From the NCBI GenBank assembly GCA_021372575.1, contig JAJFUE010000152.1, positions 1,995 through 65,994 on the forward strand: DNA of 64,000 nt. The letters run 5' to 3'. Within the stretch, counting starts at the first letter, position 1; the number at the start of each line of letters is the position of its first letter. Source of the stretch: a bacterium (lineage in GTDB: Bacteria; Sumerlaeota; Sumerlaeia; MVZB01). Shown here piece after piece: positions 556-53,715 of the stretch. The translations under genes were made by a program, and so were the position numbers. The notes under the pieces were generated by a model. That model saw nothing but the letters and a program-made list of their open reading frames with translations. It did no database searches and was not told the origin of the DNA.

Positions 556-2769
556 CTATTCACAAAACACAGGCTTCACGCCCATTTCGCGCAGCAGGTA
601 GCCGCCGCCATCGACCGCGTCGAGCAGCCATTCCAAATAACGGACATCGGCGTGGATGCCGCGCGTGACGTCGGGCTGGAAGACGAGGTCGCTGCCGACA
701 CCCTCGATGTTGCCGTCGAACACGATGCCGGCGAACTCGCCGGCGGCGTTGAGCGTCGGCGAGCCGGAGTTGCCGTTGGTGATGTCGAGGTCGGTGAGGA
801 AATCGACCGGCACGCCGCCGGCCTTCGCGTCGGCATACGGTCCGAAACGCCGCTCGTTGATCGCCGCAATAAGTTTTTGCGGCGCGTTGTATGGGGCCTC
901 GCCCTTGTTGCGCGCCCATTTTTCGGCCATCTGCCAGACGTTGGTGAACGGGAAACAAACAGGCCTGCCGGCGACCGGGCTGAACCCGCGCACCGTGCCG
1001 AACGTCACGCGAATCGTGCCGTTGGCGTCCGGCGCGATACGGCCGTTGTTGAATTCGCTCAGCGCCTCGAAATATAGCGGCCGCAGGAAAAGCATCGCGC
1101 CCGCCGCGCGCTTGGAACGATCTTCTTCGGCCTTGATGACGGGCAGGGCCTTGAGCGCAAATTGGATCATCGGGTCCTTTGATTTCTTCAGCGCGGCGGT
1201 GTCGGCCGCGCGGATGAGCTTGAGCCGCGTATTCAGGTTGGCGAGCCCGGTCTTGTCGTAAAGCCCGGCGACGCGGGCGTGAATGGCGTCGGCCGTCGCG
1301 GGGCCGGCGCCCATGATGTCGTTGAAAATCGCGGGGCGCTGGTCGGCCGGAAGCTTCGCCGCCTCGCGCAGGAAAAATTCGAACACCGCCTCGTCGATCC
1401 TGCGGTCGTAGTCTTTCTGGTTGCGCTCCTGGGCCTGTTCGATGCGCTGCCAGTCGCGCTGCTGAAGGCCGGGCTCGCGCTCAAGGTCGGGCTTGGGGCG
1501 CTCCTCGGCGAGGCGCGCAATCGTGATCGCCGCCGACAGCAGGCTCGAGCCGCCGATGATGTTGCCGAACGCAAGCCGCGTCTCGCGGCCCTGTTCGTGC
1601 TCCTTGACGATTTCGTCGATTTCCTCCACGACGCCGCCGTATTTTTGTTCGCGCTCCGGCGTGGCCGCGATCCAGTCGATCAGCTTTTTTTCGTCGGCGG
1701 CCTTCTTTTGCTCGAGGCCGCTCGTTCGCGCCGCCTCAAGCATCCCCCCGCGTTTCTTGTTGCGGTTTTCGAGGCCGAACAGCATGCCCGAGGCCTTGAT
1801 CGCAAGCGCTTCGTCGCCATCGACGGTCTTGCGCACGAGGTCAATCTGCCGCTGCGCCTGATCGAGCTGGCGCGGCATTTCCCATCCGACGAACTGGCTC
1901 ATTTCATAGGCGGTCATGAGGCGCATCGTGCGGCCGGGATAACCGATGACCATCGCCAGATCGCCCTCCTGAATGCCTTTTGGGGCGAGGCGGAAATATG
2001 ACTTGGGCTTGTAGGGGACGTTCTTTTTGCTGTAGTCGGCGGGCTTGCCGTCGCGGCCGACGTAAGCGCGCACGAGGCCGAAATCGCCGTCGTGGCGCGG
2101 CCACATCCAGTTGTCGATCTCGCCGCCGAAGAAACCGATCCCTTCGTGCGGCGCCCACACGAGCCGCACGTCGCGCAGCTCGAGCCGCGTGATCAGGTAA
2201 TATTTCGCGCCGCCGTAAAACGTGACGACCTCGCAGCGCGTGCCGGGCGCGGCGGCCTCGGCCTCCTTCACGATTTCCTTCTGGCGCTTCGTGGCGGTCT
2301 TGAAGCGCTCGAGGTCGTCGGCAACATCCTTGAGCCCGCCGAGCACGCGATCGGTGACGTCCGTGACCGCGGTCGTGACAAAAACACGCGCGGTCGGCCC
2401 GCACGGAAGCTCCTCCTTGCGCGATCGCGCCAGATAGCCATCGACGACGAGGTTGCGCCCTTCCTTCGAGTTGTATTGCAGGTAACCGCGCACGCAGTGG
2501 TGATTCGTGATGCACAGGCCATCGGGCGAAACGAACGACGCCGACGCCCCGCCGAGGCTCACGACGGCATTGAGCGGAAAGGCGAGCATGTCGCCGAAGT
2601 TTTGCGGGTCGAACTTGAGGCCCATTTTCCTGAGCGTGTCGGCATGCACATCAGCGATCTGCTGCGGCATCCACATCCCGCCTGGCTGATACGCGAGCTC
2701 CCCGGCGGACGCGGAGACGGCGAGAAAAACAAATCCAACGAGCAGGGCGGCAATTCGGATCGATTTCAT
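556..2769 (-). CDS. Peptidase family S46 dipeptidyl-peptidase (DPP7/DPP11-like), secreted
   Basis: ATG at 2769 gives MKSIRIAALLVGFVFLAVSASA, a signal peptide. GGASASFVSPDGLCITNHHC near the N-terminus and GNSGSP near the C-terminus are S46 hallmarks. The long ORF upstream of this Met is the translated 5' leader. Confidence 0.8.
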   Translation of the reverse strand: MKSIRIAALLVGFVFLAVSASAGELAYQPGGMWMPQQIADVHADTLRKMGLKFDPQNFGDMLAFPLNAVVSLGGASASFVSPDGLCITNHHCVRGYLQYNSKEGRNLVVDGYLARSRKEELPCGPTARVFVTTAVTDVTDRVLGGLKDVADDLERFKTATKRQKEIVKEAEAAAPGTRCEVVTFYGGAKYYLITRLELRDVRLVWAPHEGIGFFGGEIDNWMWPRHDGDFGLVRAYVGRDGKPADYSKKNVPYKPKSYFRLAPKGIQEGDLAMVIGYPGRTMRLMTAYEMSQFVGWEMPRQLDQAQRQIDLVRKTVDGDEALAIKASGMLFGLENRNKKRGGMLEAARTSGLEQKKAADEKKLIDWIAATPEREQKYGGVVEEIDEIVKEHEQGRETRLAFGNIIGGSSLLSAAITIARLAEERPKPDLEREPGLQQRDWQRIEQAQERNQKDYDRRIDEAVFEFFLREAAKLPADQRPAIFNDIMGAGPATADAIHARVAGLYDKTGLANLNTRLKLIRAADTAALKKSKDPMIQFALKALPVIKAEEDRSKRAAGAMLFLRPLYFEALSEFNNGRIAPDANGTIRVTFGTVRGFSPVAGRPVCFPFTNVWQMAEKWARNKGEAPYNAPQKLIAAINERRFGPYADAKAGGVPVDFLTDLDITNGNSGSPTLNAAGEFAGIVFDGNIEGVGSDLVFQPDVTRGIHADVRYLEWLLDAVDGGGYLLREMGVKPVFCE

Positions 2770-2893
2770 TTTCGCAACTCCCAGAATGAGTCGGACGCAA
2801 ACATCACAGGTTTGGCGCAAGAATACTGATTGCGAACGGAATTCCCAATTAGAAAAAGCGGACACAACCAAAGATCCGGAAACAAAATGCAGG

Positions 2894-2935
2894 TCACGAA
2901 ATTCACGAAAGAAGACACGAAAGGCCACGAAAATC
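2894..2935 (-). promoter_or_regulatory. Four direct TTCGTG(A) repeats at roughly 10-12 bp spacing, 125-165 bp upstream of the S46 peptidase start; candidate response-regulator or operator site
   Basis: Plus strand reads tcacgaaattcacgaaagaagacacgaaaggccacgaaaatc. The same TTCGTGAATTTCGTGA core is found upstream of the GH20 gene at 39368-39386. Confidence 0.35.
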
Positions 2936-3322
2936 AAAAACCCAATCTTGTCGCGGAGACGCAGAGTTTGGCAAAGAAGCAGGGTGATCAAAAACGAACA
3001 GGAGGTAACGGAGGAAACGGAGAATGATTTCATAAAATCTCTGTTGCCTCCGTTGCCACCCGTTCAAAAATTTCCTGTTCATACGGGTGGAGCACCGCCT
3101 GACGCGTGAAATGATAATCGAGAAGATTGAAAAAAGGAATTCCCATAGCACCCCTTATGGCCCTTAGGAAACTTAATCTGAAAAAAGTGAAAATTTAGAA
3201 CGGAATCCCCACGGCGGCAAACTTGCGGAAATACAATAAGTCAAACGGCCCTGATATTTCGGGTTCCACGCAAGGATCATGAATTGTTAACGCAATTCCC
3301 AATTGGAATTATAATCAGAAAT

Positions 3323-5233
3323 TTAATAGCCGGTTCCCGACATCCTGTTGCTTCTGTCCGGGATCATTTTGATGTCGAGCGTGACGGTGGTTTCGTCGGG
3401 TTTGACGAGGCGCGATTCAAACGTTTTGTAGCCGGGCGCGATGAACTTATAACGGCGCAGGCTGTCGTCGAGGATGCGGTGCCGGAAGACGCCGCCCATG
3501 CGGTCGATGAGAGGCCCATGCGCGTAAGCCCAGGCCAGGTCACCGGAATTATCGTTATGAATTTCGGCGATGTTGACCTGAAAGGAATCGATCGGCTTGC
3601 CGGTTTGCGCGTCGGTGACGCTGGCCGTGACGTCCGTGTAAGGCTCGAGCGTAAACGTGTGCGTCACTTCGTTGGAAGCCTTGATCGCGACGTGCCTCGA
3701 CCGGTAGCCGGGCAGCATGATCCAATATTTTGTCTCGCGATCGGTGATTGAATCGCGGACCAGATAACCATTCTGATCCGTCTTGGCCCGGTCGCGGAAT
3801 TTGTCTCCGTCCGGGAACCGCATGAAATGAGAGATCGGCGGGTTGCCCGGCGAATCCACCGTGTCCGCAACGCCGACCTCGGCATTCGCAATGCCGCGTC
3901 CCTGCTGATCGACGACGCGAATGCGAAGCGTGTGGCCCGGTGACATTCTGAACTCAACCGGCGGATTGCCGGCGCGGATGCTCTTGAGCCACTGGAACGA
4001 CGGGGCAAAACCTTTCGCATATGCCGTCATGTAGATTTCGTGTTCGGTTTCGACCGCGTGCGCAAATCGAAACTCGCCCCTGGCGTCCGTCCTGAAGCCG
4101 GCAAAGCCGGGGAGCATGACCTGCGCGTTTTCAATCGGCGCGCCGGATTCATCGATAACATGCCCCTTGAGCTCGACGCCTGTTTTGACGACACATTGAG
4201 CATTCTGCGCCAGCAGCTCCGATTCCGTCGGCATGGCGTGGCCGAAAGCATAATCGGGGTGAGCGGCCGCGAGGCCGTCGAGATGATACCAGCGCGGGAA
4301 CTCGTCGAAATGCCAGCGGCCATCCGCGCCGGTCTCGGCGTAAAACGTGCCGCCGCCTTTCACCGCGTTTTCACCCGCGCGCGCGTCTTCGCCGCGGATG
4401 TAAAGCCGAACCTTCGCGCCGCTGACGGGCTCGTCTTTTTCGTTCACCACGCGACCGCCGATCCTGACGCCGCGATTCATCTTCACGGTGAACCGGCTGG
4501 GAATTGGATCTTCTCCAAACGTATTGCGCCACTCGCCGTCCATCTGAACATGGCCGGCGGCATGAACTTCGAACGAAAACCGATAATTCCCGGGCGGCAA
4601 AACGAGCCGGTATTTTCCGTTGCCGATGTGGGCGGCGGGCCGTTGGTCCCAATCGGCGTAGGCCTTGAATTCGGCGTTCGTGATCGGCTTGCCGGTGGAC
4701 GCATCGATCACCTCAATCGTCATCGTGCGCGTGGTGCTGTTTTCGATCGGGCTCGCGACGGGAGCCGGCGTGTTGGAGATCCGTTTTTCAGGCGGCGGCT
4801 TGCGCGCGGTTGTTTGTGTGGTCGTGGCGGTCACCGGGCTCGGGAACAGCTCGATGTTTTCGATCTGCGAGCGATTCAGACTGAAGGCCACTAAGCCGCG
4901 CTGGTGCACGCGGACCACTTCGCCCTTGACCCACGCCTCGCAGTCCTGAATGACGTGCCCGTTCTTTAGGTGGATCGTGACGCGGCCGATTTTGTGGACG
5001 GCATCTTTTTCGGGGGCTTTCTCGAGCGCTTGGAAAAGCGCTTCGTCCGGCTGGTCTGGTGGCTCGCCGACAATCGTCGCGGCGCCGGCAGTCGATACCG
5101 AAATAATCAATGCGACGAAGGTGAATACCGCGGTCAAGCGCTTCACGGCCCCATCCCCTTTCGGCGACAAGAAACGTGCCCGCCGCTGTTGCCGGTTACC
5201 AGATGATATAGTCCGGAATCGGCGAATTGCCAA
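3323..5233 (-). CDS. Secreted hypothetical protein with repeated beta-sandwich (carboxypeptidase-regulatory-like) modules
   Basis: 636-aa ORF. Hydrophobic signal-like segment VKRLTAVFTFVALIISVSTAGA (possible GTG start near 5146). Repeated 'D(A/V)xTGKPI' modules typical of CarboxypepD_reg-like domains. Confidence 0.5.
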   Translation of the reverse strand: MAIRRFRTISSGNRQQRRARFLSPKGDGAVKRLTAVFTFVALIISVSTAGAATIVGEPPDQPDEALFQALEKAPEKDAVHKIGRVTIHLKNGHVIQDCEAWVKGEVVRVHQRGLVAFSLNRSQIENIELFPSPVTATTTQTTARKPPPEKRISNTPAPVASPIENSTTRTMTIEVIDASTGKPITNAEFKAYADWDQRPAAHIGNGKYRLVLPPGNYRFSFEVHAAGHVQMDGEWRNTFGEDPIPSRFTVKMNRGVRIGGRVVNEKDEPVSGAKVRLYIRGEDARAGENAVKGGGTFYAETGADGRWHFDEFPRWYHLDGLAAAHPDYAFGHAMPTESELLAQNAQCVVKTGVELKGHVIDESGAPIENAQVMLPGFAGFRTDARGEFRFAHAVETEHEIYMTAYAKGFAPSFQWLKSIRAGNPPVEFRMSPGHTLRIRVVDQQGRGIANAEVGVADTVDSPGNPPISHFMRFPDGDKFRDRAKTDQNGYLVRDSITDRETKYWIMLPGYRSRHVAIKASNEVTHTFTLEPYTDVTASVTDAQTGKPIDSFQVNIAEIHNDNSGDLAWAYAHGPLIDRMGGVFRHRILDDSLRRYKFIAPGYKTFESRLVKPDETTVTLDIKMIPDRSNRMSGTGY

Positions 5234-5973: not shown

Positions 5974-6241
5974 CTGACCGCTTTTCGCCTCGATGGATCA
6001 TGGCGCAGCGCATGGAGCCCGTGCGCACGGATTCCAACCATGATACGCGTTGCGATTGAACCTGTCAGCAGTTCGCTGAGGCACTGGACCAGCAAATGGA
6101 TGTCTTCCGCCGCCGGGTAGTCGAATCGCTGAACGAAGCCATCGTAAAGGCCCACAAACCAATGCAGGAACCGAAGATTTTGGATATTTTTGAACCGGAG
6201 AAGGCGGTGGCTGTAGAAACGGGGCCTGCTGGCTGACCAGC

Positions 6242-6282
6242 AAAAACCCCAAGTCGTCTAAAATCAGCGACTTGGGGTTTTT
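6242..6282. terminator. Bidirectional rho-independent terminator immediately outside the tRNA-Lys 3' fragment
   Basis: aaaaaCCCCAAGTCG-tctaaaatcag-CGACTTGGGGttttt: a perfect 10-bp stem flanked by A5 and T5. Confidence 0.7.
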
Positions 6283-6288
6283 GAAACT

Positions 6289-6333
6289 TGGTAGGTCATG
6301 TAGGACTCGAACCTACAACCAACAGATTAAGAG
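6289..6333 (-). repeat. Partial tRNA-Lys copy (anticodon loop through the 3' end, about 45 nt); att-like direct repeat marking the distal end of the island
   Basis: The reverse complement reads CTCTTAATCTGTTGGTTGTAGGTTCGAGTCCTACATGACCTACCA. This is near-identical to the 3' half of the intact tRNA at 10316-10391. Confidence 0.8.
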
Positions 6334-6473
6334 CGCCCCGCCGCAACTCATAAAGTATAGATAAATCATAAATGCGCGAAAGCCAAGCGTGGGTTTTGTG
6401 TGGGTTCTTGATTTTCGGCGGACTCATGTTGCTCGGCTTCCCCTGATTTGGATTGTCATGCAACCCGAACCCT

Positions 6474-6899
6474 TTACCATAGACGCGCGCCGTTCCCACT
6501 CTTTTTGCCCAAGCTTGCACCAAATACCTGCAAAGTTCTTTGATGCAAGTACCGCTGAACATAAGAATTGATCGTGCCATCGGGGTATAAAATACGGCTT
6601 GCAATTAATGCATCCAATGCTTTTCCGGTGCGTGATCCCGCTCCGGGAATTCTCGCCAGAAGGTCGTCACGCGAATACGTGACTTTAGACCAAAGCCAAG
6701 CCCATCGGGCTTCATCGCCGGTTGCCTTGCATGTTTTTGGATTTCCCACACGCTTTATTTCCACGCCTGCCCAACACAAAATAATTCGAATAAGCGCGGC
6801 GTTGCCGACAACCATGAGGACTGATTCAGGTTGTTCGCCACTTTTGAACTGCTCAAGAATGCGATCGAATACAGGTTGTCTCACGATGTCCTCTTTCAT
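6474..6899 (-). CDS. Hypothetical protein (island cargo)
   Basis: ORF of 141-146 aa. The start at 6899 overlaps the upstream stop by 4 nt (ATGA-type coupling). No recognisable motifs. Confidence 0.4.
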   Translation of the reverse strand: MKEDIVRQPVFDRILEQFKSGEQPESVLMVVGNAALIRIILCWAGVEIKRVGNPKTCKATGDEARWAWLWSKVTYSRDDLLARIPGAGSRTGKALDALIASRILYPDGTINSYVQRYLHQRTLQVFGASLGKKSGNGARLW

Positions 6900-8080
6900 A
6901 ACACGCAATTGCATTGGCCGATATTCTGACTCACTCCAACATCTTTCCAGACTTCGACTGTTTCAAGACAAAGAGCAACGTGGAGATCACGCCGAAAACT
7001 TTTTGCGGCGGCGATGAGATGGCGATAAATCTCGACCCTTTTCTGATGTGAATACCGGATTCGTCCATCGCCAGTCGCTCTTTCGTGGAGATGGGCGGCA
7101 ATCGTATTATCTTTTCCAAGAAATTCGTTCATCAGCCTCATGGCGCGCTGATACATGCAGATTCCGCCGAACGTCAGACGATCAAGAGGAACTTCCTTGA
7201 TCAGGTCCCTGAGAAAATCGTGATATAGATCACGCCATCCGTCCTGAAGGATGACGGGCATGATTACGGCACGAACTGGGTAGCCTCGATCGGAACACTT
7301 TTTCATCGCTACAATTCGTCTCTCAACGGAAGGAACGTTGGTCTCGTGTCGGTTGGCGATCCCAGGTGGATTCAGGCTCCAGGACAGGATGGTATGTCCG
7401 TTATGATCGAGGTCGATGTATCGCTCGATTCGATCGGACTTTGTCAAGATGGTTTGCCGCGCATATGGATGACCGGCGAAATAAGGAACCAAAACGGTTG
7501 AATAGGCGGTTAACGGATCCAGCGCGATACCGTCTTGCAGCTTGCCTGAATAAAATGCAGTCGGTCGATTGAAACCACCGGCTACACGATCAATCCTTTC
7601 GATGATTTCGGGTAGATTGACAAAGATTTTAACCGTGGGTAAAAACCATACGCCCTGCGTGCCAGCAAGGTAACAATACCGGCATCCATACGGACAAAAT
7701 CCATAGACAGAAAAATGCCAGTAGTTCGGGCACGCGTTGTTTTCCTCCTCGCTAAACCTTACCGAGTCGTTTAATTCTCCAAAGACGAGTGTACGCTTAC
7801 CTTCATGGTGAAGTTCGGAAGGCGATTTCGAATTGAGTTCGATTTTATTGTGCGGCACATCCATTCGATCGATGATTTGGGCGGAAGGATACAAACCACA
7901 GATGCGCTCGACAAAACGTTTGCGAGCGGCGGTCGCCACGCTGCCCTTGCTCAGAACGATCGTCTTCACATCGAATTCATGAATTGATTGCGGAGTATAG
8001 TCCATGGGCAAACCCCAGGGCTTACCGTTGGAATCGGCTTCCGGATCGCAGCCGGGATGAAATAAATCCATTTGTCCCAT
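6896..8080 (-). CDS. Spore photoproduct lyase (SplB)-family radical SAM protein (COG1533 DNA-repair photolyase-like)
   Basis: CPYGCRYCYLAGTQG (CxxxCxxC) followed by ...TVKIFVNLPEII... aligns with B. subtilis SplB CMGHCHYCYLQ...YIRTYVNVEEIL. GYPVRAVIMPVILQDGWRDLYHDFLRDL matches SplB GYPLGFIVAPIYIHEGWEEGYRHLFEKL. Start taken at ATG 8080; the ORF is open to 8188. Confidence 0.7.
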   Translation of the reverse strand: MGQMDLFHPGCDPEADSNGKPWGLPMDYTPQSIHEFDVKTIVLSKGSVATAARKRFVERICGLYPSAQIIDRMDVPHNKIELNSKSPSELHHEGKRTLVFGELNDSVRFSEEENNACPNYWHFSVYGFCPYGCRYCYLAGTQGVWFLPTVKIFVNLPEIIERIDRVAGGFNRPTAFYSGKLQDGIALDPLTAYSTVLVPYFAGHPYARQTILTKSDRIERYIDLDHNGHTILSWSLNPPGIANRHETNVPSVERRIVAMKKCSDRGYPVRAVIMPVILQDGWRDLYHDFLRDLIKEVPLDRLTFGGICMYQRAMRLMNEFLGKDNTIAAHLHERATGDGRIRYSHQKRVEIYRHLIAAAKSFRRDLHVALCLETVEVWKDVGVSQNIGQCNCVL

Positions 8081-8090
8081 GTCAATACCT

Positions 8091-8903
8091 TCAACTGCGC
8101 TTCGTGGTTCGTGTGCGCTGTGCGCGCTTTCCGGTAAGAATCTCCCATCTACGCGCGATCGTATCACAATATGCCGGTTGCTTTTCAATCAGGATGGCCG
8201 TTCGGCCGGTTTTCTCTGCAGCAATCAATGTGGTTCCGGAACCGCCGAACGGATCGATCACGATTCCCTCGGAATCGGAATATGCAAGCAGGGTGCGATA
8301 CGGAATTTCCACAGGGCAGACGGCCGGGTGACCATAATCCTTTATTTGATTTGATACGGCCGGAATCTGCCAGATATCCGAATTGAACTGCCACATGTAT
8401 TTGGCACCATCGGAACTCATTTTCTTCATTTTGCCTGGCTTCTTGTAAATAAGCAGCGCCTCCCATTGAGAAGCCGGGAGATATAATTGGTTCCGTACGA
8501 TATGGGTGCATCTGGGAATCTGGTAATTAGGGCCGGTCTTAGCCCAAATAATCATGTCTTGGAACTGAAAACCGGCTTCTTCCAGTATTGAACAATGATG
8601 TGCGACATGGGCATGTTTTGTTGAATAGCCGTTGGCTATGTTCCATGCAACGATGCCGCCTTTATCGAGGACGGCGTGACAATTCCCTGCGATCTTCCGC
8701 ATATCAGTGAGGTAGTCGTCATACCTGCCCCAATGTGAATACTTCCTCTGATTAAAATATGGCGGACCGGCGAAAACATGACCAACGGGAATGCCGTCGA
8801 TCGCCTTTTTAAACGTTGACTGAAGACAAGAATCTCCGCATAGAACTCGATGTCGCCCAAGAATCAGAACGTCACCCGGTTTTGTTTTGGCATTACTTGG
8901 CAC
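8091..8903 (-). CDS. DNA methyltransferase, N6-adenine/N4-cytosine family (beta-class, N6_N4_Mtase)
   Basis: RHRVLCGDS near the N-terminus, GPPY (DPPY-like motif IV) and DPFGGSGTT (motif I, FxGxG) near the C-terminus. This is the circularly permuted order typical of beta-class MTases. Confidence 0.75.
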   Translation of the reverse strand: MPSNAKTKPGDVLILGRHRVLCGDSCLQSTFKKAIDGIPVGHVFAGPPYFNQRKYSHWGRYDDYLTDMRKIAGNCHAVLDKGGIVAWNIANGYSTKHAHVAHHCSILEEAGFQFQDMIIWAKTGPNYQIPRCTHIVRNQLYLPASQWEALLIYKKPGKMKKMSSDGAKYMWQFNSDIWQIPAVSNQIKDYGHPAVCPVEIPYRTLLAYSDSEGIVIDPFGGSGTTLIAAEKTGRTAILIEKQPAYCDTIARRWEILTGKRAQRTRTTKRS

Positions 8904-9325
8904 AGGTATCGATTTATTTTCCTCATGCCAGTCGTCTTGCAGTAAGCGGCGTAACTCTTGCCCACGAAACCAAGCGTCTTGAGATCAAAATCTTCATCCC
9001 GTAATTGCTTGAGGATGTGCTTCAACTTGCCAGAATCCCACTCAGCCAGCTCGCCTGTTTTATTTTCAGCGATTGCAAACGCTTTTTTGTCTTTTTCTGA
9101 CAGGGACAAAATAATCGCCGGGATATTCTTCAAGCCCAACCGACGAGCAGCTTTCAGGCGGGTATGACCTGCTCTAAGTCGGCTATCCCTGTCGCATAGG
9201 ACAGGGACATTGAACCCAAATCGCTCTATACTCTTCTCGACGGCTCCTACCGCTTGGTCATTCTTCCGTGGATTTTCAGCCCATTCTTTGATCCGGCTTA
9301 CCGGGAGTTGAACGACTTGCATCAT
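8864..9325 (-). CDS. ParB N-terminal (ParB/Srx nuclease-like) domain protein
   Basis: ...ENPRKND...GHTRLKAARRLGLKNIPAII... is a ParB-N fold signature. Its 3' end overlaps the MTase start by 40 nt in another frame. Confidence 0.6.
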   Translation of the reverse strand: MMQVVQLPVSRIKEWAENPRKNDQAVGAVEKSIERFGFNVPVLCDRDSRLRAGHTRLKAARRLGLKNIPAIILSLSEKDKKAFAIAENKTGELAEWDSGKLKHILKQLRDEDFDLKTLGFVGKSYAAYCKTTGMRKINRYLCQVMPKQNRVTF

Positions 9326-9627
9326 GTTCTGTCACCTCGGCGATTTTGTTTGGCAATGGCGAGAACTGCCAAACTCGCACGAGCGTCCCACAGATTTAGA
9401 AAAAAAAACAATTCCCTTACCGACCCTTATGAAACTTAACGACCCTTAATCTTTAGTTTTTTTCATTTTTTTGAGTGGAATATGGGCGCGCAAATACATG
9501 ATGCAGAGGTCTAATTACTAGCGATGCTCAGCTTTAAGCGGCCTAGGATCTTGCGTCGTTTTGGAGATGGCTCATGGATACAGTGTCTGGGCTCACATAT
9601 CAAGACCAAGCTGAATCTTCAAACTGA

Positions 9628-9662
9628 GTGGTGGGTCATGAAGGACTCAAACCTACGACCAA
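9628..9662 (-). repeat. Degenerate partial tRNA-Lys 3' copy (T-arm plus acceptor); internal att-like repeat between tandem elements
   Basis: tggtgggtcatgaaggactcaaacctacgaccaa is similar to the tRNA 3' end. The preceding 12 nt (ttcaaactgagtgg) also match the flank of the intact tRNA. Confidence 0.6.
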
Positions 9663-9951
9663 ATGCCCCGCCGAAACACGGCGAGTATACAACAAACCAT
9701 TATTGTGCAAATGCGAAGCGCGGGTTTTGTGTCGGTTTCTGATTTTCGGCAGACTCATGTTGTTCGGCTTTGGGCTGCTGAAATGGCCCGGTCAGATCAT
9801 GAAGATGCTGAGCCATTCGTGCGATCTCTGTCAGCCTTTCTTTGCTCGCATGGTCGTAATGACGACTGAGAACGGATTCCCGAAATGAAAGACCCCGATG
9901 GACCGTTTGTCCATCGGGGCACTTCCGATCTGATCGAGAGATGACAACTTA

Positions 9952-10123
9952 TCCCGCTATTGCGGGAAACTGGCCGCCAGTGCGGTCAAGCCCTGCGGCA
10001 ACTACTCCGCCCGCTAATGCGGGCAACGATCGTCAGCACGATCCGCATCATCATGCGCGAGCTCTTGAGGCTCTGAAAGTTATTCCGCTTCTTCATCTGA
10101 CCAATCCCGCCGACGCGGGAAAC
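9952..10123. repeat. Three copies of the hairpin motif (T)CCCGC-N4-GCGGG-(A/C)AAC in the remnant element next to the tRNA
   Basis: tcccgctattgcgggaaac (9952-9970), gcccgctaatgcgggcaac (9009-style spacing, 10009-10027), tcccgccgacgcgggaaac (10105-10123). Spacings are 57 and 96 nt. Confidence 0.5.
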
Positions 10124-10315
10124 TTCGCTCGCCTATCCGTCCAGGGACGATCACCACTGATGGACCAAATGCAGGTTTTGTGCAAGTGTCTCACCCACAT
10201 CGCAGCCATATCGCAGGCCTATCACAGTTTTTTGGGTCCGTTTTGGATTGAATCAAGCAGGCATAGAAAAAGCCCTAAACCAAGTAGATCGAATGGCTTA
10301 GGGCTTCAAACTGAG

Positions 10316-10391
10316 TGGTGGGTCATGTAGGACTCGAACCTACAACCAACAGATTAAGAGTCTGCTGCTCTACCAATTGAGCTAATGACCC
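10316..10391 (-). tRNA. tRNA-Lys (anticodon CTT), 76 nt including the encoded CCA
   Basis: The reverse complement GGGTCATTAGCTCAATTGGTAGAGCAGCAGACTCTTAATCTGTTGGTTGTAGGTTCGAGTCCTACATGACCCACCA folds as a cloverleaf. Anticodon loop CTCTTAA. Confidence 0.9.
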
Positions 10392-19842: not shown

Positions 19843-21048
19843 TTGAAGGAACCTGTCATGAAGTCGAGCGCTCGCAAAAAACCGGCAAAATGCGCGTCCG
19901 CAGAATCCGCCACCGCTTACGTTCAAATCGTCGAGGACATATCGGAGTTGCTGGAGTCCGCGCGGCGCGGGGCAGCCCGTGCCGTCAATACGATACTGAC
20001 GGCGACCTATTGGGAAATAGGGCGCAGGATCATCGAATTTGAACAATCCGGCCGCACCAGGGCGGAGTATGGGGTCGAGCTGTTGAATCGACTATCGGCG
20101 GATTTGTCAGCCCGATTCGGGCGCGGATTCTCCGTCGATAATCTCGAATTAATGAGGTTGTTTTATATTCATTATCCATTTCATGACATTTCCGAGACAG
20201 GGTCTCGGGAATCAGGAAATTCCGAGACAGGTTCTCGGAAATTCGATCTGCAGCAACTGGCCACCACATTGAAACTGTCGTGGTCGCATTATGTCTTGCT
20301 CGTCCGGCGGGCCCGATCCAACGAAGCAAGGGCGTTTTACGAGACCGAAGCCTTGCGGGGCGGCTGGTCGGTGCGGCAATTGGAACGCCAAATCGATTCG
20401 CAATTTTACGAACGAATGGCATCGTCGCGCCCCAAAGCCGCCATGCCGGCAAGGACAAACATATCCGATGTTTCCAAAGAACCGGCTTACGAAAGTGAAT
20501 TTCGCGATCCGTTCGTTCTGGAGTTCCTCGATTTGAAGGACGAATACTCGGAGAACGATCTCGAACAGGCTCTCATCCGGCATCTCGAGACCTTCCTGCT
20601 CGAACTCGGCCGGGATTTCACGTTCGTATCGCGCCAGAAACGAATGCGGGTTGGAGATGAATGGTACCGGGTCGATCCGGTATTCTACCACCGCGGTTTG
20701 AGGTGCCTGGTGCTCATCGATCTCAAGCTGGGACGCCTCACGCATGCCGATGCCGGGCAGATGGACATGTATTTGAACTACGCCTGCGAACACTGGACCC
20801 GGCCGGATGAGAATCCGCCGGTCGGTTTGATCCTCTGCACGCATAAGGACAACGCCGTGGCACATTATGCGCTCGACGGTTTGCGCAACAAAGTGCTTGC
20901 GGCGGAATATAAAATAGCGCTGCCGGATGAAAAAAAGATCGCGCAAGAATTGATGCATACTCGTAAAATGCTTGAGACTCGGTCGGTGCTTAAGAATCCA
21001 AAGCGAAAGGGTTCGAGACCGCCGGATCGAACATCAAAATCGAGGTAG
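19843..21048 (+). CDS. YhcG-like PDDEXK nuclease-domain protein (DUF1016)
   Basis: N-terminal DUF1016_N-like segment (...TATYWEIGRRIIE...) and C-terminal PDDEXK core (RVDPVFYHRGLRCLVLIDLKLGRLTHADAGQMDMYLNY). GC content is lower than in neighbouring genes. Confidence 0.65.
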   Translation: MKEPVMKSSARKKPAKCASAESATAYVQIVEDISELLESARRGAARAVNTILTATYWEIGRRIIEFEQSGRTRAEYGVELLNRLSADLSARFGRGFSVDNLELMRLFYIHYPFHDISETGSRESGNSETGSRKFDLQQLATTLKLSWSHYVLLVRRARSNEARAFYETEALRGGWSVRQLERQIDSQFYERMASSRPKAAMPARTNISDVSKEPAYESEFRDPFVLEFLDLKDEYSENDLEQALIRHLETFLLELGRDFTFVSRQKRMRVGDEWYRVDPVFYHRGLRCLVLIDLKLGRLTHADAGQMDMYLNYACEHWTRPDENPPVGLILCTHKDNAVAHYALDGLRNKVLAAEYKIALPDEKKIAQELMHTRKMLETRSVLKNPKRKGSRPPDRTSKSR

Positions 21049-52072: not shown

Positions 52073-52870
52073 TTGATGAGAGGTGGTCCGCAAAAAATGT
52101 TGGCAAACAAAATGCCTTGTTTTTGGCGAGCAGCGGTGATCCCGTTGGCGTTATTATGTTGTCAGGCATGCACTGTCAGCGTTTGGAAATATGGCCTCCG
52201 CAAAGAATACCACCTAAAGGGAATTGAAGGTATTTCGCCAAACGATTTGGGGAAACCGGATTTTTCCGGATACCTGTTGGTATCATATGGCAATGGCACC
52301 GGCAGCTCGAACTTGTTTTATGAGAAATATTTTTGCGCTATTCCCATCATCGACGGAAGGGTTCAGGATCCGTTTGATTACAAAGGCTCGCAAACCGGCC
52401 TGAAATGCATTGCGAATGATGTATCCCCTGAGCGTTTGAACAGAATTCGAAAATACAGTTTTGACGCGGAATCAATAAATCTGGCGTCAAAATTATATTA
52501 TGAGAAAAAATATATTCCGAACGACCGCTACCATAACCCGCAATTTGGATCCGGCTACTCTGTCTCTGATGGCGTGAGTTTGATCCCGTATCATCCGAAT
52601 ACAATGGAGTTTGCGGATCCGGAGAAAAATTCGAGGGTTCACTGGCGTCCGGGCAAGAATCCATTGGAGCCTCCGTTCGATGTGACATGTCGCGTCATTA
52701 TTCTGCCTAGCACACAACCTGTTTCTAAGCCGGAGCGGGTTCGAAATGTATTTGGAGCAGTGATTGAAACTCCATTCACGATTGTTGCTGATCTGTCCAC
52801 GTTTCTGTTGTTTTGCATTTTCGACCCCAAGAACGCGTTATCGTATTGGGGCGATGAGGCTGGATTTTAA
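52073..52870 (+). CDS. Hypothetical exported protein or lipoprotein; AT-rich, likely horizontally acquired
   Basis: Signal-like ...AAVIPLALLCCQAC. GC about 35-45% against a roughly 67% background. Confidence 0.45.
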   Translation: MMRGGPQKMLANKMPCFWRAAVIPLALLCCQACTVSVWKYGLRKEYHLKGIEGISPNDLGKPDFSGYLLVSYGNGTGSSNLFYEKYFCAIPIIDGRVQDPFDYKGSQTGLKCIANDVSPERLNRIRKYSFDAESINLASKLYYEKKYIPNDRYHNPQFGSGYSVSDGVSLIPYHPNTMEFADPEKNSRVHWRPGKNPLEPPFDVTCRVIILPSTQPVSKPERVRNVFGAVIETPFTIVADLSTFLLFCIFDPKNALSYWGDEAGF

Positions 52871-52965
52871 GTAGCGTTTTTTGTCGCAGGCGAGCAGGAT
52901 CGGGCAGAATCAGGTCTTATAGGTCCCACTCAACTAAAACACCGGGAGAAACGTCATTAAACCTC

Positions 52966-53715
52966 TCACTTCATATACACCCTGCCCTGGTCGTCCATGC
53001 CGATGCTTGTGCCGTTGCCTAGATCGAGCGTCTTGGTGATCTGGTCCGGCGGCGGATCGAACGTGAACACTGCGCCTTCGTTGGCCGCTTTTTCCAAATA
53101 AACGAGTAGGCGGTCCGCCTTGGCCAGCGCGGTCGCGCACACGTCCGGCTTGCAGTTCAGCGTCGATTTCGACACCAGCAACGTGAACGGCCACGTGATG
53201 AGGTTGAAGAGCCTCTGCTTGATGCCCGGCCGGTGTTTGCCTTGCTCGACTTCGTTGAGATATTCGAGGCTCTTTTGCAGGCAGTATTTCAACATCTTGA
53301 AGATCATCAGGTATTCGCCGGCATCGCATCGCCGGCTGATCTCGGAATTGTGGAAGATGAATCGCGAGACGAAGATGCGGATCCCGTGATCGAAGTCCTT
53401 GGGATTGGCCGTCCAGCCGTGACCCTTGCCCGACAGCGCCTTCACCCACTCGCCGCTCTTCGCGCACAGCTCGCAGTAGGACAGGAAGTAGCCGTTCATT
53501 TCCGCGCTGTCGGCGGCGGTGGTGCTGGTGAGCTTCTTGAGTTTCTCGAGGATCGGCTTTGCGCGTTCGTCGGTGATTTTGTAGGTCCAGTTCATGGCGT
53601 AGCTGATACCCCACGCGAACTCGAAAAACTCCGGCGGCGTGAACAGCGTTTCGAGCAGCTTGTCCGGCCCCGGCTTGGCCGCGGAGAAGATCTTCAGATT
53701 CGGACCCGTCGCCAT
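52966..53715 (-). CDS. Hypothetical protein; AT-rich, likely horizontally acquired
   Basis: 249-aa ORF with no recognisable motifs. Convergent with the previous gene. Confidence 0.45.
   Translation of the reverse strand: MATGPNLKIFSAAKPGPDKLLETLFTPPEFFEFAWGISYAMNWTYKITDERAKPILEKLKKLTSTTAADSAEMNGYFLSYCELCAKSGEWVKALSGKGHGWTANPKDFDHGIRIFVSRFIFHNSEISRRCDAGEYLMIFKMLKYCLQKSLEYLNEVEQGKHRPGIKQRLFNLITWPFTLLVSKSTLNCKPDVCATALAKADRLLVYLEKAANEGAVFTFDPPPDQITKTLDLGNGTSIGMDDQGRVYMK

What the first reader, a model, noticed from the sequence alone, without database searches (positions are those of the whole stretch)
6289..10391. tRNA-Lys-integrated low-GC island with tandem att repeats, carrying SPL-family radical SAM, DNA methyltransferase and ParB-like nuclease, but no integrase
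The intact tRNA-Lys(CTT) at 10316-10391 is followed, in the tRNA's own direction, by two further partial copies of its 3' end in the same orientation (9628-9662 and 6289-6333). About 12 nt beyond the tRNA end are also shared (ttcaaactgagtgg / ttgaaacttggtagg). A roughly 70-nt segment next to each partial copy is repeated too (6371-6440 and 9708-9780). This is the classical footprint of serial site-specific integration at a tRNA 3' end: element A is about 3.3 kb, and B is a 650-bp remnant. The interior is visibly AT-richer than the chromosome. Cargo is a small hypothetical protein, a spore-photoproduct-lyase-like radical SAM enzyme, an N6/N4 DNA MTase and a ParB-nuclease-domain protein. No integrase or excisionase ORF is present. 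The original tRNA terminator (6242-6282) now sits just outside the distal att copy. A radical-SAM DNA-repair or DNA-modifying enzyme packaged with a ParB-MTase module on a mobile island is not a standard defined system. It could be a DNA modification or repair cassette, or an anti-restriction module.
Basis: partly seen in the sequence, partly recalled or inferred. Interest (0 to 1): 0.7.

Follow-up and report, generated by a model that had tools for sequence, protein, structure and literature searches.

The report
Decayed tRNA-Lys island with radical-SAM cargo
The low-GC stretch beside tRNA-Lys is the wreck of two tyrosine-integrase mobile elements inserted one after the other; their integrase survives only as fragments, while the cargo, an uncharacterised DNA-methylase-linked radical-SAM enzyme related to spore photoproduct lyase plus a small DNA-binding-like partner, is intact and widespread in uncultured bacteria.

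Summary
An intact tRNA-Lys(CTT), two downstream copies of its 3' end, a repeated arm beside each copy, and 48-50% GC against about 65% in the flanks are all real and far beyond chance.

Two corrections apply.
- "ParB" and "MTase" are one ParB-N6/N4-methylase fusion gene, broken by a 1-nt deletion near 8957.
- The integrase is not absent without trace. 9700-9879(-) encodes the last ~59 codons of a tyrosine integrase, and the repeated arm is that gene's 3' tail.

A 91.5%-identical relative (L087/L090) has the full integrase, an intact fusion methylase, the same radical-SAM and small genes, and the same arm and 45-nt att. So the window holds two decayed, tandemly accreted elements (CIME-like). 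That is an ordinary kind of island.

The cargo is the interesting part. The SPL-fold radical-SAM enzyme has >1800 homologues at 50-62% identity, found in 250 species genomes spanning many named phyla. It sits next to a methyltransferase gene in 45 of 84 loci (three unrelated families). It often lies in small islands bounded by tRNA repeats. It is nearly absent from phage and plasmid collections. It stays under purifying selection (dN/dS 0.09) where the methylase has decayed. Its function is unknown; a DNA-directed radical modification or repair role is inferred.

The parts
10316..10391 (-). Intact tRNA-Lys(CTT). Its 3' 45 nt (10316-10360) is the att core (attL).
   Evidence: ARAGORN; Rfam tRNA 76.7 bits; repeat family D1
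9880..10315 (-). tRNA-proximal part of remnant B. It holds a terminator-like hairpin just after the tRNA, three hairpin repeats (9951-10124) and no credible gene. The stretch 10134-10311 is conserved (85%) after tRNA-Lys in L004.
   Evidence: Sequence; repeat family D3; ORF 9941-10330 has no Pfam hit; blastn to L004
9700..9879 (-). Remnant of a tyrosine-integrase gene (last ~59 codons plus the stop codon). It includes the SRHY catalytic-Tyr region, and its tail runs into the repeated arm.
   Evidence: tblastn with the L087 integrase: 70% identity over 46 aa, E 4e-15; integrase-family HMM E 5e-9; blastn 82.7% over 98 nt to the integrase gene in L087
9629..9673 (-). Middle att copy, degenerate. 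About 35 nt resemble the tRNA 3' end, and 10 nt are missing relative to the other copies. It forms the junction between remnant B and element A.
   Evidence: Repeat family D1, 71%; alignment A3
9473..9628 (-). tRNA-proximal arm of element A. Its first 12 nt (CTCAGTTTGAAG) are identical to the sequence after the intact tRNA. The rest has no homologue in L087/L090.
   Evidence: Sequences compared; blastn
9326..9472 (-). Upstream control region of the cassette. It is A/T-rich with two 14-nt direct repeats (9416-9448), and is conserved in L087.
   Evidence: Repeat family D13; 91.5% blastn block begins at 9472; sequences
8864..9325 (-). ParB_N (ParB/Srx CTPase-fold) half of a ParB-methyltransferase fusion gene, with a GHTR box. 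The reading frame runs on to a stop because of the frameshift.
   Evidence: Pfam PF02195 E 7.6e-8; phrog_620 E 9e-41 and phrog_498 positions 33-163; homologues are single proteins of 402-411 aa
8955..8959 (-). Site of the 1-nt deletion (GGGCAA-GAG here, GGGCAAGGA in L087) that splits the fusion gene, in the linker between the two domains.
   Evidence: Three-frame translations; nucleotide alignment with L087
8091..8903 (-). N6/N4 DNA methyltransferase half of the fusion. Motif I is DPFGGSGTT and motif IV is GPPY.
   Evidence: Pfam PF01555 E 2.5e-36; phrog_498 positions 185-432; PADLOC MTase_II; motif count
6896..8080 (-). SPL-fold radical-SAM enzyme, 394 aa. It has CPYGCRYCY and five further invariant Cys (117, 308, 371, 390, 392). 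Intact.
   Evidence: Pfam SPL E 2.4e-27; NCBIfam below cut-off; alignment A1; PDB SPL E about 1e-30; Foldseek 4FHC TM 0.72/0.82; dN/dS 0.086
6474..6914 (-). Small partner protein, 146 aa. No family match; the model suggests a winged-helix-like fold. Its start overlaps the end of the radical-SAM gene by 19 nt.
6334..6473 (-). Distal arm of element A. The stretch 6366-6445 is a displaced copy of the integrase 3' tail (…AEQHESAENQEPTQNPRLAFAHL*).
   Evidence: Repeat families D2 and D7; alignment A3; reading of the sequences; 88% identical to L087 10478-10660
6289..6333 (-). Distal att copy (attR), identical to the tRNA 3' end at 44 of 45 positions.
6241..6283 (.). Hairpin terminator (16-bp perfect stem plus T-run) just outside attR. 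It is probably the tRNA's original terminator.
   Evidence: Inverted repeat I1; sequence

Best explanation
The region 6289-10360 is what remains of two related integrative elements. Both used a tyrosine integrase to recombine with the 3' 45 nt of tRNA-Lys(CTT).

Proposed history:
1. An L087-type element inserted first. L087-type means at least 14 kb, with an integrase followed by a three-gene cassette lodged in the integrase's 3' tail, then the arm and att. It later lost everything between its tRNA-side arm and the cassette, integrase included. That left element A (9628-6334): arm, ParB-methylase, radical SAM, small protein, integrase tail, att.
2. A second, cassette-free relative then inserted into the tRNA-side att. 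It decayed to remnant B (10315-9663), which keeps only the end of its integrase gene.

Both pieces keep their att flanks, so they are cis-mobilisable-element-like relics in tandem accretion.

The cargo is a conserved module. A ParB-fused N6/N4 DNA methylase (here recently frameshifted) is followed by an SPL-fold radical-SAM enzyme and a small protein that is probably a winged helix.

Shown: the architecture, the homology, the decay and the selection on the radical-SAM gene.

Inferred:
- The radical-SAM enzyme binds DNA and uses a 5'-deoxyadenosyl radical to abstract a hydrogen from a base. It acts on, or alongside, methylated DNA, either to modify it further or to reverse or repair a methyl-derived lesion. 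I put about 0.35 on this functional class.
- It benefits the host independently of its methylase.
- The small protein regulates or targets it.
For: Island origin:
- The att copies and arms are real, and the stretch is low in GC.
- L087/L090 is 91.5% identical over 2975 nt (window 6499-9472). Its gene order is Phage_integrase (427 aa), ParB_N+N6_N4_Mtase (411 aa, one ORF), SPL (394 aa), 141-aa protein, then the arm and a perfect 45-nt tRNA-Lys copy, then Cas9/Cas1/Cas2. That is a different host flank.
- Window 9742-9879(-) matches residues 376-420 of that integrase (70% identity, E 4e-15). Both arms encode the same C-terminal tail.
- No other match to this integrase or to its family HMM exists in the window.

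Decay:
- The methylase carries a 1-nt deletion relative to L087, yet dN/dS is 0.05 for the ParB half and 0.09 for the methylase half. Both halves were therefore constrained over most of the window-L087 divergence, which points to a recent frameshift.
- L004 and L088 join window 10134 directly to 8380. This removes ParB and the methylase N-terminus but keeps the radical-SAM gene (and, in L088, the small gene) intact.
- For the radical-SAM gene, window against L004 gives dS 0.76 and dN/dS 0.086.

Cassette:
- The radical-SAM protein has 1823 homologues. It occurs in 250 species genomes spanning many named phyla at 50-62% identity.
- In 84 loci the neighbours are: ParB-methylase directly upstream in 27, small protein downstream in 21, an Rsm22/Methyltransf_25-like methyltransferase in 12, an Eco57I/N6_Mtase in 7, and DUF523 in 15.
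- The same three genes are bounded by tRNA-Pro and a perfect 45-nt repeat 3.7 kb away in L001.
- The fold is SPL.
- Precedent for an SPL-like radical-SAM enzyme that installs a DNA modification: phage M6 gp53 (PMC8989533).
- ParB-N6N4 methylase fusions are enriched in prophages (PMC12704722).
Against: - The order of events (A first, B second) is inferred. A single ancestral element with an internal duplication of arm plus att is not excluded.
- The 150 nt at 9473-9613 have no counterpart in L087, so A's left end cannot be tied to that element.
- No empty tRNA-Lys site or circular form was seen.
- The frameshift could be an assembly error in a metagenome-assembled genome. The only independent contig that matches exactly (L086) does not cover it.
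- On function there is no direct evidence of the substrate. The SPL hydrogen-donor Cys140 is replaced by an invariant Lys. About 45% of loci show no methyltransferase from the three recurrent families within about 6 kb, although many of those contigs are short. Apart from the radical-SAM motif and the Cys positions, no residue-level active-site inference was possible.
Confidence: 0.75

Rival explanations
1. Element A is not just a relic. It is a still-mobile, integrase-less mini-element (a CIME or satellite) that a cognate integrase, supplied in trans by an L087-like element, excises and re-integrates. Its small size would then be selected for.
For: - Both att-flanking arms are retained around A.
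- A second, independent 3.7-kb island carries the same three genes, perfect 45-nt repeats and no integrase at tRNA-Pro.
- Radical-SAM islands of 3.2-3.4 kb, bounded by tRNA repeats, occur in L029 and L061.
- Cis-mobilisation of such elements is documented in streptococci (PMC5704250).
Against: - No intact integrase of this family occurs in the 64-kb window, and the family is rare, with 12 homologues in 5.8 billion proteins.
- The middle att is degenerate, with 10 nt missing and 3-4 mismatches.
- The methylase is frameshifted, and relatives show further deletions that remove att.
- Only one narrow integrase HMM was used to declare the other islands integrase-free.
Confidence: 0.2
2. The radical-SAM enzyme is simply a spore-photoproduct lyase or other SOS-type DNA-repair lyase, carried as a fitness cargo. 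The neighbouring methylase is an unrelated selfish passenger.
For: - Its best and only close structural match is SPL.
- The YCY tyrosines of SPL are conserved.
- COG1533 splB genes are LexA-regulated in several phyla (PMC4951493, PMC8565304).
- A LexA-like gene sits just upstream of the cassette in L002.
- The radical-SAM gene survives the loss of the methylase under purifying selection.
Against: - It scores 128 bits against the 400-bit cut-off of the SplB equivalog model and 56 against 437 for the SPL-family model.
- SPL Cys140 aligns with an invariant Lys.
- Five further invariant Cys (four in the C-terminal part) and an extra N-terminal segment are absent from SPL.
- Linkage to a methyltransferase of three unrelated families in 45 of 84 loci is hard to credit to chance.
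- The hosts are not spore formers.
Confidence: 0.2
3. The cassette is a restriction-modification-like defence system. The methylase marks self DNA and the radical-SAM enzyme damages unmarked invading DNA, with the small winged-helix protein acting as controller.
For: - A methylase and a DNA-directed enzyme lie in one operon on tRNA-associated islands, as is typical of defence cargo.
- The family is nearly absent from phages.
- A small HTH-like protein resembles the C-protein logic of restriction-modification systems.
Against: - PADLOC recognises only the methylase.
- The radical-SAM gene is intact and under purifying selection where the methylase is frameshifted (window) or truncated to about 95 residues (L004, L088). 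A methylation-gated toxic effector should not tolerate that.
- Many loci lack any adjacent methylase.
Confidence: 0.12
4. The three-gene cassette is itself a mobile insertion that targets the integrase-att junction of integrative elements or tRNA 3' ends, perhaps using the ParB-fold domain as a nuclease.
For: - In L087 and in element A the cassette sits exactly between the body of the integrase gene and its displaced 3' tail. Remnant B shows the uninterrupted arrangement.
- The cassette is found at different tRNAs (Lys, Pro).
- Divergence is mosaic: dS is 0.07 for the radical-SAM gene against 0.6-0.8 for its neighbours.
Against: - No terminal repeats or target duplications of the cassette itself were seen.
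- No recombinase domain is detected in any of the three proteins.
- The position between integrase and att is a common site for ordinary cargo.
Confidence: 0.05

Closest known systems
Cis-mobilisable elements (CIMEs) and tandem accretion at tRNA genes, e.g. ICESt1-related islands and the S. agalactiae tRNA-Lys composite islands (PMC5704250)
   Same: The elements are flanked by attL and attR, have lost their integrase and sit in tandem with a related element at the 3' end of a tRNA gene (tRNA-Lys in S. agalactiae). The published three-step scheme of integration, decay and second integration fits the anatomy here.
   Different: No conjugation or mobilisation genes are seen. The parent element (L090) looks phage-like or otherwise unclassified (GP88, C5 methylase). 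The host is an uncultured high-GC bacterium. Cis-mobilisation was not tested.
Tycheposon-built islands of Prochlorococcus (bioRxiv 10.1101/2020.12.28.424599) and the ssrA island arrays of Dehalococcoides (PMC3146451, title and abstract only)
   Same: Tyrosine-recombinase elements target tRNA or tmRNA 3' ends. Successive insertions push older ones inward. Partial tRNAs and fragmented integrases are scattered through cargo-rich islands.
   Different: The integrase family is different and rare (12 homologues). No replication module is seen. The arrays found here are in Chloroflexota, Planctomycetota and Hydrogenedentota metagenome-assembled genomes.
Spore photoproduct lyase SplB (PDB 4FHC; TIGR04070)
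   Same: The whole-chain fold matches (TM 0.72/0.82). The CxxxCxxC cluster lies within a C..C.YCY motif. The enzyme presumably binds DNA.
   Different: Identity is only 20%, and the score is far below the equivalog cut-off. Cys140 is replaced by an invariant Lys. There are five additional invariant Cys, four of them in the C-terminal part, and an extra N-terminal segment of about 40 aa. The gene is linked to methylases and the hosts are non-sporulating.
Phage M6 gp53, an SPL-like radical-SAM isomerase in thymidine hypermodification (PMC8989533)
   Same: It is an SPL-like radical-SAM enzyme on a mobile genome that acts on DNA after another base-modifying enzyme, not as a repair enzyme.
   Different: gp53 works with a 5-hmdU kinase, a transferase and a PLP decarboxylase in a virulent phage. 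The family here pairs with methyltransferases and is essentially absent from phage collections. No sequence comparison with gp53 was made.
ParB-N6/N4 methyltransferase fusions of prophages (phrog_498; PADLOC PDLC03229; PMC12704722)
   Same: The two-domain architecture is the same (seen in L087 and 26 other loci), the ParB GHTR box is conserved, and the genes sit on mobile elements.
   Different: In the window the gene is split by a frameshift. Motif IV is GPPY in 18 of the 20 radical-SAM-linked members in which an xPP[YFW] motif was found, not D/N/SPPY. The obligate radical-SAM neighbour is not described in that survey, which has no occurrence of "radical".

Membership tests
tRNA-targeting tyrosine-integrase integrative element (genomic island or prophage) | Intact target tRNA plus a direct repeat of its 3' end bounding foreign DNA | tested here: met
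   45-nt repeat with 1 mismatch, 0 expected by chance; GC 0.48-0.50 against about 0.65
tRNA-targeting tyrosine-integrase integrative element (genomic island or prophage) | Element-encoded integrase next to att | tested here: not met
   There is no intact gene. Only a fragment of ~59 C-terminal codons at 9700-9879 and a ~25-codon tail copy (plus stop) at 6366-6445 remain. The intact gene is present in relative L087/L090.
tRNA-targeting tyrosine-integrase integrative element (genomic island or prophage) | Same element at the same att in a different genomic background, or an empty site in relatives | tested here: inconclusive
   L090 has the same cassette, arm and att, but followed by Cas9 and not by the HAD-hydrolase flank. 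No empty tRNA-Lys site was found, and the attL of L090 lies beyond the contig end.
Cis-mobilisable element (CIME) in tandem accretion | attL and attR retained, integration and transfer genes lost, adjacent to a related element at the same site | tested here: met
   Three att copies delimit A (3.3 kb) and B (0.65 kb). The arms are 76-83% identical, and the integrase survives only as remnants.
Cis-mobilisable element (CIME) in tandem accretion | Excision or transfer when a cognate integrase is supplied | not testable with these tools
   This needs PCR or read evidence for circles and empty sites.
Spore photoproduct lyase (SplB, TIGR04070) | Score at or above the curated equivalog cut-off | tested here: not met
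   128.2 bits against a 400-bit cut-off; TIGR03886 scores 56.4 against 437.55
Spore photoproduct lyase (SplB, TIGR04070) | Radical-SAM CxxxCxxC cluster and the SPL fold | tested here: met
   C129/C133/C136 are invariant; Foldseek to 4FHC gives E 1e-22 and TM 0.72/0.82, and the next fold match is at E about 6e-5
Spore photoproduct lyase (SplB, TIGR04070) | Hydrogen-donor cysteine (Cys140 in G. thermodenitrificans, Cys141 in B. subtilis) | tested here: not met
   In the profile alignment to 4FHG the residue aligns with the invariant Lys180 of FYxGKLQD. An invariant Cys117 lies three positions from Ser76, which is mutated to Cys in PDB 4RH0. From memory, I take Ser76 to be the position used by clostridial SPLs. 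Equivalence was not established.
ParB-N6/N4 DNA methyltransferase fusion (phrog_498 type) | ParB_N and N6_N4_Mtase in one polypeptide | tested here: not met
   The window gene is split by a 1-nt deletion at about 8957. The feature is met in L087, L001, L002 and L003.
ParB-N6/N4 DNA methyltransferase fusion (phrog_498 type) | Methyltransferase motifs I (FxGxG) and IV ((D/N/S)PP(Y/F)) | tested here: inconclusive
   DPFGGSGTT is present. Motif IV reads GPPY here and in 18 of the 20 linked homologues in which an xPP[YFW] motif was found. The consequence for activity is unknown.
Known anti-phage defence systems (PADLOC-DB 2.0) | All components match the models of a defined system | tested here: not met
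   Only MTase_II and orphan-methylase models hit. The radical-SAM and small proteins have no hit.

The most novel reading that the evidence does not exclude
The methyltransferase-linked, SPL-fold radical-SAM family, with its extra four- or five-cysteine site, may be a new class of DNA-directed radical enzyme that works on methylated bases. One example would be an oxygen-independent demethylase or repair enzyme for (mis)methylated DNA in anaerobes. In that scheme the enzyme abstracts a hydrogen from the N-methyl group, an auxiliary cluster oxidises the radical, and hydrolysis follows. Another example would be the second step of an unknown DNA hypermodification. The family would be spread across many phyla as minimal cassettes in tRNA-repeat-bounded islands.
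Probability: 0.25. Interest if true: 0.8.

Novelty: new variant of a known kind. Interest (0 to 1): 0.5.

Why it matters
The island itself is textbook: decayed integrative elements stacked at a tRNA. It is useful mainly as a clean, fully dissected example, with integrase tail, arms and att all resolved, from an uncultured lineage.

The cargo matters more. Only two activities are known to me for SPL-fold radical-SAM enzymes: spore-photoproduct repair and one phage thymidine-hypermodification step.

Here a third, well-conserved branch is tied to methyltransferase genes of at least three unrelated families. It occurs in hundreds of mostly anaerobic, uncultured species. It travels on minimal islands and is kept under purifying selection after its methylase has decayed.

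If it modifies or de-modifies methylated DNA, it would add a new enzymatic route in bacterial epigenetics or repair. It would also be a candidate tool enzyme.

Tried and rejected
- Chance or artefact for the repeats: rejected (0 of 100 shuffles).
- Structured RNA in the arms: Rfam at E<=1 over 5.5-11 kb found only the tRNA. The arms turned out to be the integrase coding tail.
- Phage origin of the cassette:
  - tblastn of the radical-SAM protein against 50,697 phage records gave 2 hits at 24-25% identity.
  - The small protein gave none.
  - blastn of the island against phages gave none.
  - IMG/VR gave 1 distant hit.
  - Plasmids held only canonical splB or SPL-family genes at 31% identity or less.
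- Known defence system: PADLOC recognises only the methylase.
- A cognate integrase elsewhere in the window: tblastn and a family HMM found only the remnant. Low-GC patches at 19.8-21 kb (a YhcG/DUF1016-like ORF, judged by eye) and 52-53.7 kb (hypothetical proteins) showed no obvious recombinase by eye. No general Pfam scan of the whole window was done.
- The attL of the intact relative: the whole 18.85-kb contig (L090) has no tRNA and no second att copy, so the element is longer than 14 kb and its left end is unknown.
- A cassette-free homologue of the integrase (L091): it has no tRNA or att similarity and was uninformative.
- Literature: seven keyword searches covering spore photoproduct lyase/SPL/COG1533, ParB, methyltransferase and DUF1848, plus term look-ups inside the papers they returned, found no description of this cassette.
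- Auxiliary-cluster geometry: model coordinates cannot be read by the script tool, so Cys-Cys distances were not measured.

Full report
**1. The observation**

ARAGORN finds a single tRNA in the 64-kb window, tRNA-Lys(CTT) at 10316-10391 on the minus strand. Rfam agrees. The 3' 45 nt of the tRNA recur at 6289-6333 with one mismatch. A search for the 45-mer allowing 3 mismatches gives exactly these two hits and none in 100 shuffles.

A shorter, degenerate copy lies at 9629-~9662. Beyond the tRNA end, cttcaaactgagtgg (about 12 nt past it) is identical to what follows the intact tRNA. Next to each partial copy a 77-nt segment is 83% identical (6363-6439 and 9694-9770). With the att copy included, the similarity runs over 152 nt at 76%.

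GC is 0.46-0.51 from 6.25 to 9.75 kb against 0.62-0.74 on both sides. No other multi-kb stretch of the window is comparable. A perfect 16-bp hairpin with a T-run lies at 6241-6283, just outside the distal copy.

**2. The genes**

Four minus-strand ORFs fill element A:
- ParB_N at 8864-9325.
- N6_N4_Mtase at 8091-8903.
- An SPL-family radical-SAM protein at 6896-8188. Its real ATG is at 8080, giving 394 aa.
- A 146-aa protein with no family match at 6474-6914.

The first two ORFs overlap out of frame. They match consecutive parts of the same phage fusion family: phrog_498 positions 33-163 and 185-432. In every relative examined the two domains form one protein of 402-411 aa. Alignment with a 91.5%-identical relative pins a single missing G at about 8957, in the inter-domain linker. 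So the window carries a frameshifted ParB-methylase fusion, not two genes. An assembly error cannot be excluded, because the one independent identical contig (L086) does not reach this site.

**3. Where the integrase went**

The small protein is 100% identical to an NCBI entry, "LLG95_14395 [bacterium]", which names the source as an unclassified metagenome-assembled genome. An 89%-identical homologue led to a Logan contig, L087, whose whole 18.85 kb is L090.

This contig is 91.5% identical to window 6499-9472 over 2975 nt, and 88% identical over the arm and att. Its gene order is as follows:
- Phage_integrase, 427 aa.
- ParB_N+N6_N4_Mtase, 411 aa and intact.
- SPL radical SAM, 394 aa.
- A 141-aa protein.
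- The arm, then a perfect 45-nt copy of the tRNA-Lys 3' end.
- Cas9, Cas1 and Cas2, which is a different host flank from the window's HAD hydrolase.

Upstream of the integrase lie GP88, a C5 methylase and hypothetical genes. No tRNA or second att copy is present on the contig, so the element exceeds 14 kb.

Searching the window with this integrase gives one hit, 9742-9879(-). It is 70% identical to residues 376-420, which include the SRHY catalytic-tyrosine region (E 4e-15). A family HMM confirms it (E 5e-9). Read in frame, the remnant continues through the "arm" to a stop at 9700-9702 (…GPFQQPKAEQHESAENQKPTQNPRFAFAQ*).

Arm A encodes the homologous tail …AEQHESAENQEPTQNPRLAFAHL* downstream of the small gene. 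The repeated arm is therefore the 3' end of the integrase gene. In L087 and in element A the 3.3-kb cassette sits between the body of the integrase gene and its displaced tail. Remnant B shows the uninterrupted integrase-tail-att arrangement.

**4. Model**

An L087-type element integrated at tRNA-Lys. It then lost everything between its tRNA-side arm (9473-9628) and the cassette, which gave element A. A related, cassette-free element then integrated into the tRNA-proximal att. It decayed to remnant B, which keeps a tRNA-side arm with its own terminator, about 400 nt of non-coding sequence with three hairpin repeats, and the integrase 3' end.

The degenerate middle att lacks 10 nt and has 3-4 mismatches. 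That fits an attP from a diverged relative. This is the integration-decay-accretion scheme described for CIMEs (PMC5704250). It also resembles the partial-tRNA and fragmented-integrase islands built by tycheposons (10.1101/2020.12.28.424599).

The order of events is inference. The 150 nt at 9473-9613 have no counterpart in L087.

**5. Decay continues, but the radical-SAM gene is kept**

Two other Logan contigs, L004 and L088, are about 85% identical to the window. Both join window position 10134 directly to 8380. That deletes the rest of B, the middle att, ParB and the first ~175 residues of the methylase. The radical-SAM gene stays full length, and in L088 so does the small gene; in L004 the contig ends 26 codons into the small gene.

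L004 still begins with the tRNA-Lys 3' end and the same terminator. L088 has lost the distal arm and att, and it has what looks like an IS21-type transposase upstream (judged by eye).

Between the window and L004 the radical-SAM gene has dS 0.76, dN 0.065 and dN/dS 0.086. Against L087, the ParB and methylase halves have dN/dS of 0.05 and 0.09, so both were constrained over most of that divergence and the window's frameshift is probably recent. The radical-SAM gene has dS of only 0.07 against 0.6-0.8 for its neighbours, which is a mosaic pattern.

**6. The cassette is a widespread module**

The radical-SAM protein has 1823 homologues in the 5.8-billion-protein set. After one at 88% identity, the listed best hits fall at about 54-62%. 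A pattern scan of one genome per species found 250 carriers. Their record titles name Chloroflexota/Dehalococcoidia, Planctomycetota, Hydrogenedentota, Armatimonadota, Myxococcota, Actinomycetota, Bacillota, Poribacteria, Sumerlaeia and others.

Neighbours in 84 loci:

| Neighbour | Position | Loci |
|---|---|---|
| ParB-methylase | directly upstream | 27 |
| Small protein | directly downstream | 21 |
| DUF523 (2-thiouracil desulfurase family) | upstream | 15 |
| Rsm22/Methyltransf_25-like methyltransferase | divergent | 12 |
| Eco57I/N6_Mtase, 760 aa | downstream | 7 |
| PAPS-reductase-like | nearby | 3 |

That makes 45 of 84 loci with a neighbouring methyltransferase from one of three unrelated families. 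Two of those families are DNA-methylase families. The third is a generic class I fold whose substrate is unknown.

A tRNA lies within 2 kb of the radical-SAM gene in 14 of 84 loci. In 13 of these the tRNA's 3' end points at the gene. By my rough estimate, about 5 would be expected by chance, with random orientation.

Direct repeats of the tRNA 3' end bracket the gene in several loci:
- L001: tRNA-Pro with a perfect 45-nt repeat 3.7 kb away, enclosing the same three genes.
- L029: tRNA-Lys(TTT), 3.4 kb.
- L061: tRNA-Met with five repeats.
- L072.

No integrase was evident in these islands. That rests only on one narrow HMM and visual inspection.

The family is all but absent from phages. Plasmids carry only canonical splB or SPL-family genes at 31% identity or less.

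**7. What the proteins look like**

The alignment of 20 radical-SAM homologues has invariant C129, C133 and C136 inside CPYGCRYCY. It also has invariant C117, C308, C371, C390 and C392, with CNCVL at the very C-terminus.

A profile search of the PDB hits only spore photoproduct lyase (E about 1e-30). The AlphaFold model (pLDDT 79.8, pTM 0.84) superposes on 4FHC with TM 0.72/0.82 at 20% identity. Every other radical-SAM fold is 17 or more orders of magnitude worse in E-value.

In the HMMER alignment SPL's hydrogen-donor Cys140 falls on the invariant Lys180. The two tyrosines of YCY are conserved. C117 lies near the position (Ser76) that carries an engineered Cys in PDB 4RH0. From memory, I take Ser76 to be the position used by clostridial SPLs. 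NCBIfam scores are far below the SplB and SPL-family cut-offs.

**8. How it probably works**

Shown: the SPL fold, the radical-SAM cluster, operon linkage to methyltransferases, mobility on tRNA islands, and purifying selection without the methylase.

Inferred: the enzyme binds DNA as SPL does and abstracts a hydrogen atom from a base. The extra cysteines may hold a second cluster.

Precedents exist for both repair (SPL, and LexA-regulated COG1533 splB genes; PMC4951493, PMC8565304) and modification (phage M6 gp53; PMC8989533).

- The repeated pairing with unrelated methyltransferases argues for chemistry on, or downstream of, methylated DNA.
- Survival of the gene after methylase loss, and its absence from phages, argue against a methylation-gated toxic effector and against phage anti-restriction.
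- My leading reading is a DNA modification or demodification-repair enzyme functionally coupled to methylation, at about 0.35.
- Plain lesion repair stands at about 0.2, and a restriction-modification-like defence at about 0.12.

**9. Verdict**

The island is an ordinary, well-explained object: tandem decayed integrative elements at tRNA-Lys.

The cargo belongs to an undescribed but widespread methyltransferase-linked branch of the SPL radical-SAM family. I found no description of it in PADLOC, in the curated family libraries or in the searchable literature. That is worth experimental follow-up, but no function has been demonstrated here.

Noticed in passing
window 9951-10124: There are three copies of a hairpin unit (ATCCCGC-N4-GCGGGAAACT) spaced 57 and 96 nt apart inside remnant B. 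They could be protein-binding sites or a small REP-like repeat. They remain unexplained.
   Followed up: no
window 9892-9920 (-): A strong terminator-like hairpin (12 pairs, 8 of them G-C) directly abuts the 5' break of the integrase fragment and marks the deletion junction.
   Followed up: no
window 6896-9325 compared with L087 7559-10426: Divergence is mosaic. The radical-SAM gene has dS 0.07 (97% amino-acid identity), while ParB has dS 0.80, the methylase 0.61 and the small gene 0.38. This suggests recent recombination that replaced only the radical-SAM gene.
   Followed up: partly
L061 7320-15008 (tRNA-Met plus five repeats of its 3' end); also L055, L072 and L001: Arrays of very small cargo units are each bounded by a 45-50-nt copy of the tRNA 3' end, with no integrase seen within about 9 kb. 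The units include a HicB-like antitoxin, a methyltransferase plus radical-SAM pair, and hypothetical genes. The layout resembles an integron.
   Followed up: partly
L002 9671-11937; L072 7133-9876; L005 5056-7999: Further SPL-like or other radical-SAM genes co-occur with the family. One is paired with a ~550-aa protein that has no Pfam hit but carries a DLGAGSG SAM-binding-like motif. Others sit with DUF1848. This hints at multi-radical-SAM systems.
   Followed up: no
ParB-methylase genes upstream of the radical-SAM gene in 27 loci (e.g. window 8091-8903, L087 7559-8794): Methyltransferase motif IV reads GPPY in 18 of the 20 members in which an xPP[YFW] motif was found, not the usual D/N/SPPY. 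This may mean an atypical target atom or altered activity.
   Followed up: partly
15 loci, e.g. L002 7518-7988 and L011 3914-4381: A DUF523 (2-thiouracil desulfurase family) gene is repeatedly inserted directly upstream of the radical-SAM gene, in some loci between it and the ParB-methylase. Its role is unexplained.
   Followed up: no
L002 5544-6146: A LexA-like gene (LexA_DNA_bind plus Peptidase_S24) sits between tRNA-Pro and the cassette. This recalls the published LexA control of COG1533 splB genes.
   Followed up: no
window 19843-21048 (+): A 401-aa ORF of lower GC (0.53) that looks like a YhcG/DUF1016 PD-(D/E)xK nuclease (judged by eye, not scanned) sits just upstream of the leuD-like ORF.
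   Followed up: no
window 52073-53715, and window 2500-3500: Two further short low-GC patches (0.45-0.47) carry only hypothetical ORFs or the end of a long surface-protein-like gene. No recombinase was obvious by eye.
   Followed up: no
L088 161-751 (-): What looks like an IS21-type transposase N-terminus (judged by eye) lies immediately upstream of the truncated methylase in this relative. This shows additional rearrangement of the same island.
   Followed up: no
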